DNA of 64,000 nucleotides from Bacillota bacterium (lineage in GTDB: Bacteria; Bacillota; Clostridia; Christensenellales; UBA1242), in the NCBI GenBank assembly GCA_009784185.1, contig WRCD01000002.1, forward strand, positions 132,935 to 196,934, in the 5' to 3' direction. Under the pieces are notes generated by a model. It saw only the letters and a program-made list of their open reading frames with translations, was not told the origin of the DNA and did not search any database. The translations under genes were made by a program, and so were the position numbers. Within the stretch, counting starts at the first letter, position 1. Every line of letters begins with the position of its first letter. Shown piece by piece: positions 43,649 to 47,345 of this stretch.

Positions 43649-45817
43649 ATGATTAAACTTGTTATTAAAAGAGACGGGACCTATCAGGAATACAACAAGA
43701 AGAAAATTGCCGATGCCATATTCAAGGCGGCGGTTGCTTGCGGCGGCAGCAACTTTAAGCGCTCGCTGGAACTGGCTGACGAAGTGGAACAGCTCCTTAT
43801 AAAGAGATATACCAACGAGACTCCCACAGTTGAAAAAATTCAGGATATTGTGGAATATGTTTTAATTGAAAACCGTCATAGCAGAACGGCTAAGGCGTAT
43901 ATATTGTACCGCGAAAAGCGTTCGGCAAGCAGGGAATATAATTCGCTTGTTGGTGCAACCATAAGTATGTTTGACTGTTACATTCAGGGTGCCGACTGGG
44001 CGGTTAAAGAAAATGCAAACCAGCAGCACAGTGTAGCCGGACTTAACAACTATATAAGAGAAGAGTTTACCAAGCATTACTGGCTGAACGAGGTTTATCC
44101 TATTGAAGTAAAAGACGCTCACATAAACGGCGACATTCATGTGCATGACCTTGGCTGGTTTGGCACATATTGCGTGGGCTGGGATTTGTATCAGATTTTG
44201 GAAATGGGTTTTACCGGTGTGCCGGGCAAGGTAAGCAGCAGCCCTGCTAAACACTTCAGAAGCTTTTTAGGGCAAGTTGTAAACGCAACATTCACCCTTC
44301 AGGGCGAGGCAGCAGGCGCTCAGGCGTGGAGCAGTTTTGACACATATTGCGCTCCGTTTATAAGATACGATAACCTTGACTACAAGTCTGTAAAGCAATG
44401 CATTCAGGAATTTGTGTTTAACATGAATGTGCCTACCCGGGTTGGTTTTCACTGTCCGTTCAGCAATATCACGCTTGACCTTAAAGTGCCTGCTTTGCTT
44501 AAAGACAGGCCTGTGCTTCGCGGAGGTGTACCGCAAGAGGAAACATATGGGATGTTTCAGGCGGAAATGGATATGCTGAACAAGGCCTTTTGTGAGGTTA
44601 TGAGTGAGGGCGACAGCAAGGGCCGTATATTTACCTTTCCCATACCTACAATTAACATAACAAAAGAAACCGACTGGAATTCACCCGTTATGAACGCTGT
44701 TATGGACATGACCGCAAAATTCGGAATCCCGTATTTTGCTAATTACATAAACAGCGACCTCAGCCCGGAAGACGCTGTTAGTATGTGCTGCAGGCTGCGT
44801 TTGGATGTAAGCCAGCTCCGTAAGCGTGGAGCCGGGTTGTTTGGCTCTAACCCATTAACCGGTTCAATCGGGGTAGTTACAATCAACCTGCCCAGATTGG
44901 GTTACACTTGTAAAACGGAGGAAGAGTTTTTTGCCCAACTGGACAGGCTTTGTAATGTTGCTAAAACCAGCCTGGAAATTAAGCGTAAAATTGTAGAAGA
45001 CCAGACCGAGCGCGGATTGTATCCGTATTCCAGCTTTTACCTGCAATCGGTAAAGAACCGCTCCGGCGCATATTGGGCAAACCACTTTAATACAATCGGC
45101 ATTGTTGGAATGAATGAATGTCTGCAAAATTTTATGAAAACCGACCTTACCAGCAAGCAAGGGCAGGAGTTTGCAATAAAAGTTATGAACCACTTGCGCG
45201 GCAAGATGATAGAATTTCAGATGGAAACCGGCAACCAATACAACCTGGAGGCAACTCCGGCGGAAGGCACTGCGCCCAGGCTTGCCAGAATTGATAAAAA
45301 GAAATTCCCCGAGATTGTTGTTTGCAGTGATACTGAGCCGTATTACACCAACTCAACCCAGTTACCGGTTCAATATTCCGATGATATTTTTGAGGTTATC
45401 AAGCTTCAGGACGAGCTTCAGTCGCTTTACACCGGCGGAACGGTACTGCACTTATATCTGGGAGAGCGTGTAGACGACGGCCAGACCTGTAAGCGTTTAA
45501 TCCAAAAGATATTTAACAATTCTAAAATGCCGTATGTAAGCATAACTCCTACATTCAGCGTTTGTCAGGAGCACGGTTACATACGCGGCGAGCACTTTAC
45601 CTGCCCTCAATGCGGTGCCGAAAACGAAGTTTGGAGCAGGGTGGTTGGATACTTCAGACCGGTCGGCAACTTTAACAAGAGCAAACAAATTGAGTATATG
45701 GAACGCAAAAAGTTTGTAATCAGGCCAGAGCAGTTGGATGAACTTGAGAACATTGAAGCGGCTAAGAAAGTGACAAAAACCGGGAAACCGGCAAAAGCAA
45801 TTGCTGAAGTTGTGTAG
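43649..45817 (+). CDS. nrdD: Anaerobic ribonucleoside-triphosphate reductase (class III)
   Basis: AAAGGAG SD. N-terminal ATP-cone (MIKLVIKRDGTYQEYNKKKI). C-terminal Zn ribbon CPQCG and glycyl-radical motif RVVGYFRPV. 722 aa. Confidence 0.95.
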   Translation: MIKLVIKRDGTYQEYNKKKIADAIFKAAVACGGSNFKRSLELADEVEQLLIKRYTNETPTVEKIQDIVEYVLIENRHSRTAKAYILYREKRSASREYNSLVGATISMFDCYIQGADWAVKENANQQHSVAGLNNYIREEFTKHYWLNEVYPIEVKDAHINGDIHVHDLGWFGTYCVGWDLYQILEMGFTGVPGKVSSSPAKHFRSFLGQVVNATFTLQGEAAGAQAWSSFDTYCAPFIRYDNLDYKSVKQCIQEFVFNMNVPTRVGFHCPFSNITLDLKVPALLKDRPVLRGGVPQEETYGMFQAEMDMLNKAFCEVMSEGDSKGRIFTFPIPTINITKETDWNSPVMNAVMDMTAKFGIPYFANYINSDLSPEDAVSMCCRLRLDVSQLRKRGAGLFGSNPLTGSIGVVTINLPRLGYTCKTEEEFFAQLDRLCNVAKTSLEIKRKIVEDQTERGLYPYSSFYLQSVKNRSGAYWANHFNTIGIVGMNECLQNFMKTDLTSKQGQEFAIKVMNHLRGKMIEFQMETGNQYNLEATPAEGTAPRLARIDKKKFPEIVVCSDTEPYYTNSTQLPVQYSDDIFEVIKLQDELQSLYTGGTVLHLYLGERVDDGQTCKRLIQKIFNNSKMPYVSITPTFSVCQEHGYIRGEHFTCPQCGAENEVWSRVVGYFRPVGNFNKSKQIEYMERKKFVIRPEQLDELENIEAAKKVTKTGKPAKAIAEVV

Positions 45818-45824
45818 TGCTGTT

Positions 45825-45935
45825 GTCATTGCGAGTTGCTCCAGCGAAGCCATTCAAACGAAGCAATCCCCTGGGTAGAAATTCTGTCGATGGGATTGCT
45901 TCGTTAGAAGGAGCAGGAAGCAGTCTCGCAATGAC
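45825..45935. repeat. Family-2 palindromic element, full copy (111 bp), in the nrdD-nrdG spacer
   Basis: Outer stem GTCATTGCGAG / CTCGCAATGAC. Inner stem AACGAAGCAATCCC / GGGATTGCTTCGTT. 21-nt loop. Followed by AGCGTTTTT. Confidence 0.85.
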
Positions 45936-45962
45936 AGCGTTTTTAATGTTTGGGAGCATCAC

Positions 45963-46718
45963 ATGAAAATAAACAATTACATAATCAACAGCCTTATAGA
46001 TTACCCGGGGCACATTGCCTGTACTGTTTTTACGGTTGGCTGCAACTTAAATTGCTGGTATTGTCATAACAAAAAACTGATTGACAGTAATTCCGAAAGT
46101 GTTGATGAGTTAGGATTGCTTGGAAAGCTAAAAGAGCGTGCCGGCTTTTTAGACGGCGTTGTTATATGCGGCGGCGAGCCTACCCTTCAGCCTGATTTGG
46201 AGGAGTTTATATTAAAAGTAAAGGCACTTGGGTTAAAGGTTAAGCTGGATACCAACGGAACGAATCCCGAAGTTGTGTCAAGGCTGCTTAGTAAAAATTT
46301 GCTGGACTATATAGCAATGGATGTTAAAGCCCCAATTAGTGCAGGTGAGGAGACTGTCATTGCGAGCCTGTCCTGCGGAGCCGGCAAACGAAGCAATCCC
46401 ATAGGTAGAAGAGAGGTGGCTCGGTATTCACAAATAGTTGGTGTTGATTGTAATATTACGGACATTAAATCCAGCATAGAGATTATAAAGGCTAGCGCCA
46501 TAGACTACGAATTTAGAACCACATTTTTGCCCGATTTAACAGTTCGGGACATTGAAAACATTGCCAAAATGATTGCAGGAGCAAAACGGTATTATATCCA
46601 AAAGTATGTTACGCCCGCGCATTTGCTTAACCGAAACATTACGCCGCATACGGCTGCCGAATTGGATTTGGCTCTGCAACTGGCAAGTAAGCATATAAAA
46701 ACCGCTTTAAGGGGTTAA
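45963..46718 (+). CDS. nrdG: Anaerobic ribonucleotide reductase activating protein (radical SAM)
   Basis: CNLNCWYCHN radical-SAM cluster motif, GGEPTLQPDL and DYEFRTTF. 251 aa, including a repeat-derived insert. Confidence 0.9.
   Translation: MKINNYIINSLIDYPGHIACTVFTVGCNLNCWYCHNKKLIDSNSESVDELGLLGKLKERAGFLDGVVICGGEPTLQPDLEEFILKVKALGLKVKLDTNGTNPEVVSRLLSKNLLDYIAMDVKAPISAGEETVIASLSCGAGKRSNPIGRREVARYSQIVGVDCNITDIKSSIEIIKASAIDYEFRTTFLPDLTVRDIENIAKMIAGAKRYYIQKYVTPAHLLNRNITPHTAAELDLALQLASKHIKTALRG
46356..46410 (+). repeat. Family-2 element, half copy, in frame inside nrdG
   Basis: GTCATTGCGAG-18nt-CAAACGAAGCAATCCC-ATA-GGTAGAA here, versus GTCATTGCGAG-19nt-CAAACGAAGCAATCCC-CTG-GGTAGAA at 45825. Translated as VIASLSCGAGKRSNPIGRR. 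Confidence 0.85.
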
Positions 46719-46746
46719 AAACAGGCGTGTTATGCCTGTTTTTTGT
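46717..46746 (+). terminator. Rho-independent terminator of nrdDG
   Basis: AAAAACAGGC-GTGTTAT-GCCTGTTTTTTGT. Confidence 0.8.
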
Positions 46747-46826
46747 GCAAGTTGCATAAAATAATTGATAAATTTGTGTTTAAGTGCTATGCTTAAGCCA
46801 TAAAGAATAAAGGGAAACGGATACAC

Positions 46827-47345
46827 GTGCAAACAAATATTACATTGTTCTGTTTTTTGAATAATTATAGCAAGAATATAGCCAAGATACTGGCCGACAA
46901 GCTGGAAATGTTTTATGTGGATTTTGCCGAACTTCTGGAGTACGAGCTGGTTGACAGCGGAAACATTATTACTGCACTTGGCAAGCGTGACGGAAATAAA
47001 TATATAAGCGGTATAGAGCAAAAATTAATAAAAACCGTAAATGAATATGAAAACACAATTATAACTATTAATCCGGTTAAGTTGTTTTCTGCCAAAAATT
47101 CGGCCGCGTTCAAAAAGAGTAGTTTTTTGGTGTATCTCCAGGTTGCTCCAAACATAATGGCAAACAAAGCGGAAGAGACCGGTGATAAAACAGAACCGGA
47201 ATTGATAGGTGCGGGCTTTTCCGAGCGCGATAAGTTGTACGTAACCAACAGTGATATTGTAATTGACTGCACAAAATTAAAAGAAAAGAAAGCGGTTAAG
47301 TTATTGATTAAGGAACTAAAGAATTTATTTAAGAGTAGGGCTTGA
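46827..47345 (+). CDS. Shikimate-kinase-like protein with degenerate P-loop
   Basis: GTG start. By eye, NITLFCFLNNYSKNIAKILADKLEMFYVDFAELLE aligns to AroK [35 protein letters not shown]. The Walker-A glycines and the later GGG motif are lost. 172 aa. Confidence 0.35.
   Translation: MQTNITLFCFLNNYSKNIAKILADKLEMFYVDFAELLEYELVDSGNIITALGKRDGNKYISGIEQKLIKTVNEYENTIITINPVKLFSAKNSAAFKKSSFLVYLQVAPNIMANKAEETGDKTEPELIGAGFSERDKLYVTNSDIVIDCTKLKEKKAVKLLIKELKNLFKSRA

What the first reader, a model, noticed from the sequence alone, without database searches (positions are those of the whole stretch)
46356..46410. Half copy of the family-2 repeat translated in frame inside the radical-SAM activase NrdG
Seen in sequence: 46356-46410 shares GTCATTGCGAG..CAAACGAAGCAATCCC...GGTAGAA with the intergenic copy 530 bp upstream. 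It reads through as ..ETVIASLSCGAGKRSNPIGRRE.. without a stop.

Inference (from my recollection of activase alignments): homologues go from ..DYIAMD.KAP.. to ..Y..I.G.. within a few residues, so about 25-28 aa here are repeat-derived.

Established knowledge: in-frame insertion of palindromic repeats into ORFs is documented for Rickettsia palindromic elements (RPEs). It is not widely described in Firmicutes.
Basis: partly seen in the sequence, partly recalled or inferred. Interest (0 to 1): 0.6.

Follow-up and report, generated by a model that had tools for sequence, protein, structure and literature searches.

The report
Selfish DNA repeat translated inside NrdG
An uncultured termite-gut Clostridium carries 27 extra, in-frame amino acids in its anaerobic ribonucleotide-reductase activase, derived from one unit of a small repeat found in many bacterial phyla, where it forms the ends of a tiny GIY-YIG nuclease element; this is a new example of a known phenomenon (Rickettsia-type "protein-coding palindromes").

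Summary
nrdG (45963-46718) has a clean 81-nt, 27-aa in-frame insert (46341-46421). None of 119 homologues and none of ten relatives' nrdD-nrdG loci has it. Its core 57 nt (46354-46410) is a copy of the repeat that fills the nrdD-nrdG spacer as an inverted pair.

The insert is real DNA. It is identical in a second assembly and in contigs from a second termite-gut data set, and no insert-free form was seen.

"Half copy" is only partly right. Other copies in the metagenome start and end at the same two points, so the gene holds one whole repeat unit. The spacer element is a head-to-head dimer.

The unit (T/CGTCATTGCGAG..CGAAGCAATC) occurs in many phyla. 74 of 80 loci encoding one conserved ~95-aa GIY-YIG nuclease carry it, typically on both sides of the gene. 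It resembles CGTC-tagged REPs/RPEs and Ssn-NTS/SRM elements but fails the published SRM pattern.

In the model the insert is a low-confidence (probably disordered) loop between strand 5 and the next helix, four residues after the conserved D120-x-K122. All invariant residues are intact, so the enzyme probably still works, but this is untested.

The parts
43649..45817 (+). nrdD, class III (anaerobic) ribonucleotide reductase, 722 aa, intact
   Evidence: Pfam NRDD 645.7 bits over the whole profile (1-562/562), plus an ATP-cone. The C-terminal glycine loop reads SRVVGYF.
45824..45936 (.). Complete palindromic element filling the nrdD-nrdG spacer: a head-to-head pair of repeat units (left 45824-45880, right 45882-45936)
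   Evidence: Outer arms 12/12 complementary; inner arms 28 nt, 82% complementary. Folds at -66.6 kcal/mol, z -8.5, with 0 of 200 shuffles as good. Syntenic relatives have a 10-14-nt spacer and no repeat.
45963..46718 (+). nrdG, NrdG2-type radical-SAM activase, 251 aa including the insert
   Evidence: TIGR02495 194.4 bits (cut-off 131.15); Radical_SAM and Fer4_12 domains. All 25 invariant columns of the 120-sequence alignment are kept, on both sides of the insert.
46341..46421 (+). The 81-nt / 27-aa in-frame insert (A127-A153: AGEETVIASLSCGAGKRSNPIGRREVA)
   Evidence: Opposite gaps in 119 of 119 homologues. GC is 58% against 40.6% for the rest of nrdG. pLDDT is below 50 for residues 129-151.
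46354..46410 (+). One complete unit of the repeat, on the sense strand: (C)TGTCATTGCGAG - 19-nt interior - AAACGAAGCAATCCC - ATAGGTAGAA
   Evidence: The unit boundaries are set by about 30 other metagenome contigs whose match begins at 46354/5 and ends at 46398-46411. It has no excess secondary structure on its own (z +1.2).
46341..46353 (+). Left junction of the insert (GCAGGTGAGGAGA), of unknown origin
   Evidence: Absent from homologues. Lies outside the repeat boundaries seen in other copies; only one contig matches from 46349.
46411..46421 (+). Right junction of the insert (GAGAGGTGGCT), of unknown origin
   Evidence: Absent from homologues. Other copies diverge at 46398-46411.

Best explanation
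One unit of a small repeat found in many bacterial phyla has become part of nrdG. The unit reads (T/C)GTCATTGCGAG, a variable interior, then CGAAGCAATC(C). In other bacteria, pairs of this unit in inverted orientation bracket a ~95-aa single-domain GIY-YIG nuclease gene. Gene-less pairs form ~110-nt palindromes like the one in the nrdD-nrdG spacer.

In nrdG a single 57-nt unit plus 24 nt of junction lies on the sense strand in a stop-free frame. It adds 27 residues between beta-strand 5 (DYIAMD) and the next helix, four residues after the conserved D120-x-K122.

Shown: the insert, its repeat origin, its absence from all relatives, its presence in two data sets, and the link between the repeat family and the nuclease gene in other genomes.

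Inferred:
(a) The piece arrived by the family's own, still uncharacterised, spreading mechanism rather than by copying the neighbour.
(b) The gene survived because only one arm is present, so no -66 kcal/mol hairpin forms in DNA or mRNA. Its interior is also 1 nt shorter than the neighbour's, which puts the TAG of GGTAGAA out of frame.
(c) The extra peptide is a tolerated, disordered loop and NrdG still activates NrdD.
For: Insert delimited and unique:
- (0 of 119 homologues).
- Syntenic relatives L050/L051 and Clostridia MAGs L052-L059 all lack it and lack the repeat.
- Foreign composition: 58% against 40.6% GC.

Real DNA:
- An ENA contig is 100% identical over 20.7 kb.
- An X2 contig spans 46208-46424 with 0 differences, and X1 contigs cover both junctions.
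- No read-through form skipping the insert was seen.

Unit boundaries and closer copies elsewhere.

Family link to the nuclease:
- 4 of 48 repeat-bearing loci have a GIY-YIG gene beside the repeat.
- Reciprocally, 74 of 80 loci of that nuclease clade carry the 11-mer (chance about 0.05 per locus by my arithmetic), and 62 of 80 carry a full unit.
- The usual layout is a unit just before the ATG and an inverted unit just after the stop.

Protein still looks sound:
- Mean pLDDT 83.8, with only residues 129-151 below 50.
- All invariant residues are kept, and nrdD is intact.

Long-term tolerance elsewhere: the same family sits in frame in a Patescibacteria GT39 glycosyltransferase, and four of the eleven aligned proteins (L022's own and three homologues, 55-59% identical to it) share that insert.
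Against: - Activity of the insert-bearing NrdG is untested.
- The insert is on the catalytic face of the barrel. It lies six residues after D120, which aligns with PFL-AE D129, a ligand of the active-site cation that also binds the SAM carboxylate (PMC10267522). It also adds a free cysteine (C138).
- No close relative exists (best 53% identity), so the age of the insert and the selection on it cannot be measured.
- 24 of the 81 nt are unexplained.
- No GIY-YIG gene is in the window, and the rest of the genome could not be searched.
- No transposition mechanism for this family has been shown by anyone.
Confidence: 0.72

Rival explanations
1. The insertion has inactivated or crippled NrdG. The ORF merely looks intact because the event is recent, and the cell relies on another activase or another class of ribonucleotide reductase.
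For: The insert sits on the SAM/substrate face, 4-6 residues after the conserved D-x-K. No expression data exist. The rest of the genome could not be searched.
Against: - No frameshift, stop or loss of any invariant residue on either side of the insert.
- nrdD beside it is fully intact.
- The insert is identical in two data sets with no empty allele.
- The unit is only 77-91% identical to other copies, which argues against a very recent event.
- There is no second nrdG in the 64-kb window.
Confidence: 0.15
2. The in-gene piece was copied locally from the spacer element 530 bp upstream, by template switching or gene conversion, rather than arriving independently.
For: The two lie close together in the same orientation as the left arm and share the GGTAGAA tail.
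Against: Identity to the neighbour's arms is 81% and 77%, and the interiors are largely different. Six other contigs at the genome's own read depth are 84-91% identical. The 24 junction nucleotides are not found in the spacer.
Confidence: 0.08
3. Assembly artefact: a repeat was wrongly threaded into nrdG in a metagenome assembly.
For: Logan contigs of X1 break inside the repeat (46346/46366). The depth of repeat k-mers is about 25 times that of the flanks.
Against: - Two assemblers give the same sequence.
- A single X2 contig from another data set crosses the whole insert with 133 nt of upstream nrdG.
- The unique 13-nt and 11-nt junctions are contiguous with nrdG on each side.
- The insert is exactly in frame.
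Confidence: 0.03
4. The loop has been co-opted, for example to modulate docking on NrdD or cluster chemistry through C138, and is now kept by selection.
For: It lies at the catalytic face. In Patescibacteria GT39 proteins an in-frame copy of the same family is conserved among four proteins that are 55-59% identical to L022's.
Against: It is unique among 120 NrdG sequences, predicted disordered, and has no comparative data.
Confidence: 0.05

Closest known systems
Rickettsia palindromic elements (RPEs; Ogata et al. 2000/2002, as summarised in PMC10969869 and PMC3733652)
   Same: A dispersed palindromic repeat is read in frame inside genes for ordinary, apparently functional enzymes. The extra peptide lies in a loop compatible with the fold. 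RPEs end in CGTC, and this unit begins TGTC/CGTC.
   Different: Different host phylum (Clostridia of a termite gut, not an obligate intracellular alphaproteobacterium). Only one arm is present, not a whole palindrome. Sequence homology to RPE-1 to RPE-10 was not tested. The frequency in this genome is unknown to me.
CGTC-tagged REP superfamily (Di Nocera, De Gregorio and Rocco 2013, PMC3733652)
   Same: A 5' CGTC or TGTC tag followed by AT...AT, a short C-rich tail, frequent head-to-head dimers, and occasional intragenic copies.
   Different: Described CGTC REPs are compact, with 8-9-bp stems and 4-5-nt loops. This unit is 45-57 nt with a 19-23-nt interior and only ATTGC/GCAAT able to pair within one unit. 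That paper reported them in 5 phyla, none Firmicutes, and with no dedicated enzyme.
NTS/SRM hairpin repeats and Ssn single-domain GIY-YIG ssDNA nucleases (Chenal et al. 2025, PMC11893778)
   Same: The layout repeat-nuclease gene-repeat. The nuclease is 94-104 aa and single-domain, with the same spacing of the residues mutated in SsnA (Y6, Y17, E64 there; Y8, Y19, E66 here). The unit shares GTCATT at the 5' end and AATC(C) at the 3' end with NTS (CGTCATTCCCGCG..GCGGGAATCC).
   Different: The unit does not match the published SRM search pattern: 0 hits in the window and 3 of 80 nuclease loci. Membership of the nuclease in cd10448 could not be tested. [quoted passage not shown]
REPINs and REP singlets mobilised by RAYT transposases (Bertels and Rainey 2011; my recollection, not read here; RAYT and REP dimers or singletons as discussed in PMC3733652)
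   Same: The working form is an inverted doublet that folds as a long hairpin. Single units also occur.
   Different: Those carry a GTAG tag and are linked to an IS200/IS605-type tyrosine transposase. Here the associated gene is a GIY-YIG nuclease.
Bacterial MITEs that make in-frame fusions (ERIC, QMITE1 of Coxiella, Anabaena MITEs; review PMC10969869)
   Same: A small non-autonomous element with inverted ends. In-frame fusion with host ORFs is described as 'not unusual'.
   Different: No target-site duplication is recognisable here. The related gene-carrying element encodes no classical transposase.

Membership tests
NrdG2-type anaerobic RNR activase (TIGR02495) | Scores above the curated cut-off of the equivalog model | tested here: met
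   194.4 bits against 131.15, matched in two stretches split at the insert.
NrdG2-type anaerobic RNR activase (TIGR02495) | CX3CX2C cluster motif, GGEP, DTNG and D-x-K motifs; gene adjacent to nrdD | tested here: met
   C27, C31, C34, G70-T74, D96-G99, D120 and K122 are all among the invariant columns. nrdD ends 145 nt upstream.
RPE-type protein-coding palindromic repeats | Member of a dispersed repeat family, inserted in frame in a gene whose homologues lack the segment | tested here: met
RPE-type protein-coding palindromic repeats | Insert lies in a surface loop compatible with the fold | tested here: inconclusive
   The AF2 model places it in the beta5-helix loop with pLDDT below 50 and the rest confident. 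The loop is on the catalytic face.
RPE-type protein-coding palindromic repeats | Sequence homology to Rickettsia RPE-1 to RPE-10 | not tested
   No RPE sequences were fetched. Only the shared CGTC/TGTC tag is known from PMC3733652.
CGTC-tagged REPs (Di Nocera 2013) | CGTC (or TGTC/CCTC) tag at one end, followed by a stem that begins with AT | tested here: met
   TGTC-ATTGC at 46355 and 45824. CGTCATTGCGAG occurs in many other phyla.
CGTC-tagged REPs (Di Nocera 2013) | Compact hairpin: 8-9-bp stem and 4-5-nt loop | tested here: not met
   Within one unit only ATTGC/GCAAT can pair, around 27-28 nt. The unit folds at -3.3 kcal/mol with DNA parameters and has no excess over shuffles.
SRM/NTS repeats of Ssn nucleases (Chenal 2025) | Matches the published degenerate pattern HGTCWYN(0-2)YYVSBRHN(0-5)WNVSBRGN(0-2)RNCYNB | tested here: not met
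   No match on either strand of the window. Only 3 of 80 loci of the associated nuclease clade match.
SRM/NTS repeats of Ssn nucleases (Chenal 2025) | Repeats flank a single-domain ~94-aa GIY-YIG gene on both sides | tested here: met
   Met in other genomes: 74 of 80 loci carry the 11-mer and 62 of 80 a full unit, typically one on each side of the gene.
SRM/NTS repeats of Ssn nucleases (Chenal 2025) | Nuclease belongs to CDD family cd10448 and cuts single-stranded DNA next to the repeat | not testable with these tools
   Only Pfam GIY-YIG (66 bits) and similarity to the UPF0213 structures 1ZG2 and 1YWL (E 1.4e-6) could be shown.
MITE | Terminal inverted repeats, 70-300 bp, no coding capacity, related gene-carrying element | tested here: met
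   This applies to the 113-nt spacer element, with gene-carrying relatives in other genomes. The in-gene piece is a single end.
MITE | Target-site duplication | tested here: inconclusive
   AGGTG occurs on both sides (46343 and 46414), but removing the 71 nt between them breaks the frame and does not restore the homologues' sequence. Chance is about 6% by my estimate (reading).

The most novel reading that the evidence does not exclude
The (T/C)GTCATTGCGAG..CGAAGCAATC units would be the ends of an autonomous mobile element of roughly 0.35-0.4 kb, found in many phyla, whose only gene is a ~95-aa Ssn-like GIY-YIG nuclease. That nuclease would act as the element's mobilising enzyme, a transposon type outside the recognised transposase classes. 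It would also be the missing enzyme of the 'orphan' CGTC-tagged REP/RPE-like repeats. On this reading the in-frame pieces in nrdG, in Patescibacteria GT39 genes and (by earlier unchecked notes) in several other genes of this genome are its footprints. Their frame-preserving persistence would be a general route by which such elements add loops to proteins.
Probability: 0.25. Interest if true: 0.8.

Novelty: new member of a known kind. Interest (0 to 1): 0.45.

Why it matters
By itself this is one more case of a palindromic repeat read in frame inside a housekeeping enzyme. That is known from Rickettsia RPEs and some MITEs.

Three things make it somewhat more useful than a routine example:
- The host is a Clostridium, a phylum absent from the published surveys of CGTC-tagged repeats.
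- The insert lies next to the SAM/cation site of a radical-SAM activase. That makes it a natural test of how much that loop tolerates, in a family with only one solved activase structure (PFL-AE).
- The repeat is tied almost one-to-one (74 of 80 loci) to a highly conserved small GIY-YIG nuclease across more than 20 phyla. This gives a concrete, testable candidate for the enzyme behind a repeat class that was reported in 2013 as lacking one, and it extends the 2025 Ssn/NTS story to a repeat its search pattern misses.

Tried and rejected
No census of copies, no search for a second nrdG or other RNR class, and no search for a resident GIY-YIG gene was possible.
- Rfam scan of 45000-47000 at E up to 10 gave only chance-level hits; the best was mir-427 at 19.9 bits against a gathering score of 70.
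- A literature search by the repeat's own letters returned only unrelated primer matches.
- The subfamily-specific pattern AACGAAGCAATCCCNNNGGTAGAA had no hits in genome contigs or metagenome contigs. The local subfamily was therefore seen only through Logan contigs.
- No RNA-seq run holds nrdG, so there is no evidence on expression.
- Model coordinates are not exposed, so I could not measure the distance from the insert to the cluster.
- I considered a simple 5-bp target duplication (AGGTG) and rejected it, because it breaks the frame.
- I considered a deletion between GGTAGAA and the GTTAGAA of a lost right arm and rejected it, because no CTCGCAATGAC remnant follows.
- I tested whether the unit's interior is generally a hairpin. 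Only about 21% of 112 interiors beat their shuffles by more than 2 kcal/mol, and the three window units do not. I therefore dropped the idea of a conserved within-unit hairpin.
- The ORF-spanning scan of 322 units gave mostly spurious frames through repeat arrays. Only the L022 GT39 case was verified against homologues. The L040 kinase-like case is unverified.

Full report
**Observation**

The window has nrdD (43649-45817; Pfam NRDD 645.7 bits plus an ATP-cone) followed by nrdG (45963-46718; 251 aa; TIGR02495 NrdG2, 194.4 bits against a cut-off of 131.15).

The 145-nt spacer between them is almost wholly a 113-nt palindrome (45824-45936). Its outer arms are TGTCATTGCGAG/CTCGCAATGACA and its inner arms contain AACGAAGCAATCCC/GGGATTGCTTCGTT.

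Inside nrdG, 46354-46410 repeats the left arm:
- 12/12 identical at the start;
- a 19-nt interior in place of 20 nt;
- then 24/26 identical through GGTAGAA.

Both core words occur only at these places in the 64 kb. Chance expectation, even with mismatches allowed, is 0.69 and 0.35. The ORF reads through as ...ETVIASLSCGAGKRSNPIGRRE....

**Size and uniqueness of the insert**

Against 17 and then 119 homologues (207-262 aa, mostly 220-230; best identity 53% by BLASTP, 60% over aligned columns), residues A127-A153 (nt 46341-46421, 81 nt) face gaps in every sequence. All 119 are occupied in the columns on either side.

The two nearest relatives (L050 and L051, from another ENA assembly) keep the same gene order: metallo-beta-lactamase, nrdD, nrdG, SKI-like, tkt. 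They have a 10-14-nt nrdD-nrdG spacer, a 224-aa NrdG reading DIKAPFS|KYAVIIG at the site, and no copy of the repeat.

Eight further loci fetched with NrdD carry an adjacent nrdG: seven Clostridia/Bacillota MAGs with NrdD 64-73% identical, plus the nrdG-bearing locus L059. None has the insert.

The insert is 58% GC against 40.6% for the rest of nrdG. So both the spacer element and the in-gene piece are additions in this lineage.

Only 57 of the 81 nt are repeat. The 13 nt before it and the 11 nt after it match neither homologues nor other copies. I could not explain them.

**Is it real DNA?**

- A second assembly (ENA ERZ27257304, contig of 101,980 nt) is 100% identical over 20.7 kb.
- The stretch is found in termite-gut metagenomes.
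- In run X1, one Logan contig runs from upstream nrdG to 46366 and another from 46346 through the insert to beyond 47000.
- In X2, a different study and year, a single contig covers 46208-46424 with no difference, and the next covers 46413-46607.
- No joint skipping the insert was seen in any run.
- X2 and X3 gave identical contigs and are probably one data set filed twice, so I count two independent samples.

No RNA run holds the gene.

**What the repeat is**

At 80% likeness about 30 contigs of X1 and 15 of X2 match the stretch. Their matches start at 46354/46355 and end at 46398-46411, and their flanks disagree with one another. The in-gene piece is therefore one whole unit of the family, and the spacer element is a head-to-head pair of units.

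Six X1 contigs at the genome's own depth (8.7-11.1 against 9.7) differ at 5-9 of 57 positions. That is closer than the two neighbouring arms (48/59 and 46/60). The gene copy is therefore not a local duplicate of the neighbour.

The strict pattern GTCATTGCGAG-N12-28-AAACGAAGCAATCCC occurs in 48 stretches of the species-level genome collection. These come from Cyanobacteria, Acidobacteria, Bacteroidota, Anaerolineae and delta- and gammaproteobacterial MAGs.

In four of those loci a 97-104-aa GIY-YIG gene (Pfam 66 bits) lies within 200 nt of the repeat, with repeats on both sides.

The reciprocal test was decisive. I fetched the 80 best loci encoding that nuclease clade. The proteins are 57-100% identical across more than 20 phyla, including the Bacillota loci L091 and L122.
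- 74 of 80 carry GTCATTGCGAG (at most 1 mismatch) within 1.5 kb. By my arithmetic, chance gives about 0.05 per locus.
- 62 of 80 carry a full unit.
- Typically one unit ends 5-40 nt before the ATG and an inverted one starts within a few nt of the stop.

**Comparison with the literature**

Di Nocera et al. 2013 (PMC3733652) defined CGTC-tagged REPs:
- the tag is often TGTC;
- stems begin with AT;
- the tail is C-rich;
- dimers are frequent, and some copies lie inside genes.

They noted that Rickettsia RPEs end in CGTC, found the class in five phyla (no Firmicutes), and concluded that it lacks a dedicated transposase.

Chenal et al. 2025 (PMC11893778) showed that NTS/SRM hairpins (CGTCATTCCCGCG..GCGGGAATCC) flank ssnA. 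SsnA is a 94-aa single-domain GIY-YIG enzyme that cuts single-stranded DNA just upstream of the repeat. [quoted passage not shown]

The present unit shares with these:
- GTCATT at the 5' end and AATC(C) at the 3' end;
- the repeat-gene-repeat layout;
- the spacing of the catalytic residues mutated in SsnA (Y6, Y17, E64 there; Y8, Y19, E66 in alignment A3).

It does not match the published SRM pattern: no hit in the window and 3 of 80 nuclease loci. One unit is also not a compact hairpin. I could not assign the nuclease to cd10448. Its nearest solved relatives are the UPF0213 proteins 1ZG2 and 1YWL.

I therefore call the repeat Ssn/SRM-like and CGTC-REP-like in design, without filing it as a member of either.

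**Effect on NrdG**

The AlphaFold model built from 18 sequences has mean pLDDT 83.8 and pTM 0.82. Only residues 129-151 fall below 50. They form a loop between strand 116-120 (DYIAMD) and helix 154-159. The fold matches radical-SAM enzymes.

D120 and K122 align with D129 and K131 of PFL-AE. D129 is a ligand of the active-site monovalent cation, which also contacts the SAM carboxylate (PMC10267522). The loop therefore emerges on the catalytic face, not at a remote surface. PFL-AE is the only activase with an experimental structure (PMC13450708), so the consequences for docking on NrdD cannot be read off.

In favour of a working enzyme:
- every invariant residue on both sides of the insert is kept;
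- nrdD is intact, with its glycine loop;
- the insert is fixed in both samples.

Two sequence details fit survival under selection for an open frame.
- With the neighbour's 20-nt interior, the frame would hit the TAG of GGGTAGAA. The 19-nt interior avoids it (reading).
- The single unit has no excess structure (z +1.2 to +1.5), whereas the full pair folds at -66.6 kcal/mol (z -8.5).

**In-frame copies elsewhere**

In L022, a Falkowbacteria-type GT39 glycosyltransferase, two full pairs of units are read in frame.

Among the eleven aligned proteins:
- L022's own and three homologues (55-59% identical to it) share the first insert (SLRGS.SDRSN...GIAS...RNDSAL), and seven lack it;
- the second site carries element-coded peptides in different frames;
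- three homologues also carry an NTS-like peptide (SFPRKRES..IPAFAGMT) at a third site.

Such inserts can therefore persist for a long time.

Earlier notes of this scan, which are unchecked AI notes that I could not test, report the same or similar repeats in frame in an ABC-transporter linker, MnmE, a P-type ATPase and alanine racemase of this same genome.

**Verdict**

This is a real, repeat-derived, in-frame 27-aa insertion in an otherwise intact activase. It is a new member of the known class of protein-coding palindromic repeats, in a new phylum. The likely partner enzyme of its family is now identifiable.

Whether NrdG remains active, whether this genome encodes the nuclease, and where the 24 junction nucleotides came from all remain open.

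Noticed in passing
window 45818-45962: The nrdD-nrdG spacer is 145 nt here and almost entirely the 113-nt palindrome (-66.6 kcal/mol), followed by AGCGTTTTT and the nrdG ribosome-binding site. Syntenic relatives have a 10-14-nt spacer. The hairpin may act as an intra-operon terminator, attenuator or mRNA-stability element.
   Followed up: partly
L061-L140 (80 loci of genome contigs): A ~95-aa single-domain GIY-YIG protein is 57-73% identical between Cyanobacteria, Chloroflexota, Nitrospirota, Planctomycetota (anammox), Patescibacteria, Omnitrophota, Ignavibacteria, Bacillota and others. That is far more conserved than vertical descent would give, which suggests frequent horizontal transfer of the ~0.35-0.4-kb unit-gene-unit cassette.
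   Followed up: partly
L022 6900-8000 (- strand); proteins P0122-P0136 (alignment A2): Patescibacteria GT39 glycosyltransferases carry up to three different in-frame repeat-coded segments. One is a canonical NTS-like one (SFPRKRES..IPAFAGMT) in P0122, P0123 and P0136. At one site the same element is read in different frames in different homologues.
   Followed up: partly
L126, L085, L124 (around the GIY-YIG gene start): In some loci an upstream open frame runs through the repeat unit straight into the GIY-YIG coding sequence. The nuclease may therefore be translated as a fusion with, or inside, a host ORF.
   Followed up: no
L020 5290-5400 and 5740-5800: An Acidobacteria GIY-YIG gene is preceded and followed by tandem arrays of a ~23-nt piece (AAATATGGGCCTCGCAGTGACAG) that contains only the terminal motif of the unit.
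   Followed up: no
L040 7553-8000: In a deltaproteobacterial MAG, a kinase-like ORF (GDVSTRQYFRI...ILMKAEP) appears to have the same repeat in frame (..SLRVKRSNPIAV..FAMT..). The ORF runs off the locus and was not checked against homologues.
   Followed up: no
window 46827-47345; L050 4981-6018; L051 1294-2103: The SKI-like ORF after nrdG is syntenic in the two nearest relatives but much longer there (345 and 269 aa against 172 aa), with only weak SKI hits. It may be truncated here.
   Followed up: no
runs X2 and X3: The two runs, filed under different studies and years, yield identical contig sets on this stretch. They look like one data set deposited twice and should not be counted as independent.
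   Followed up: no
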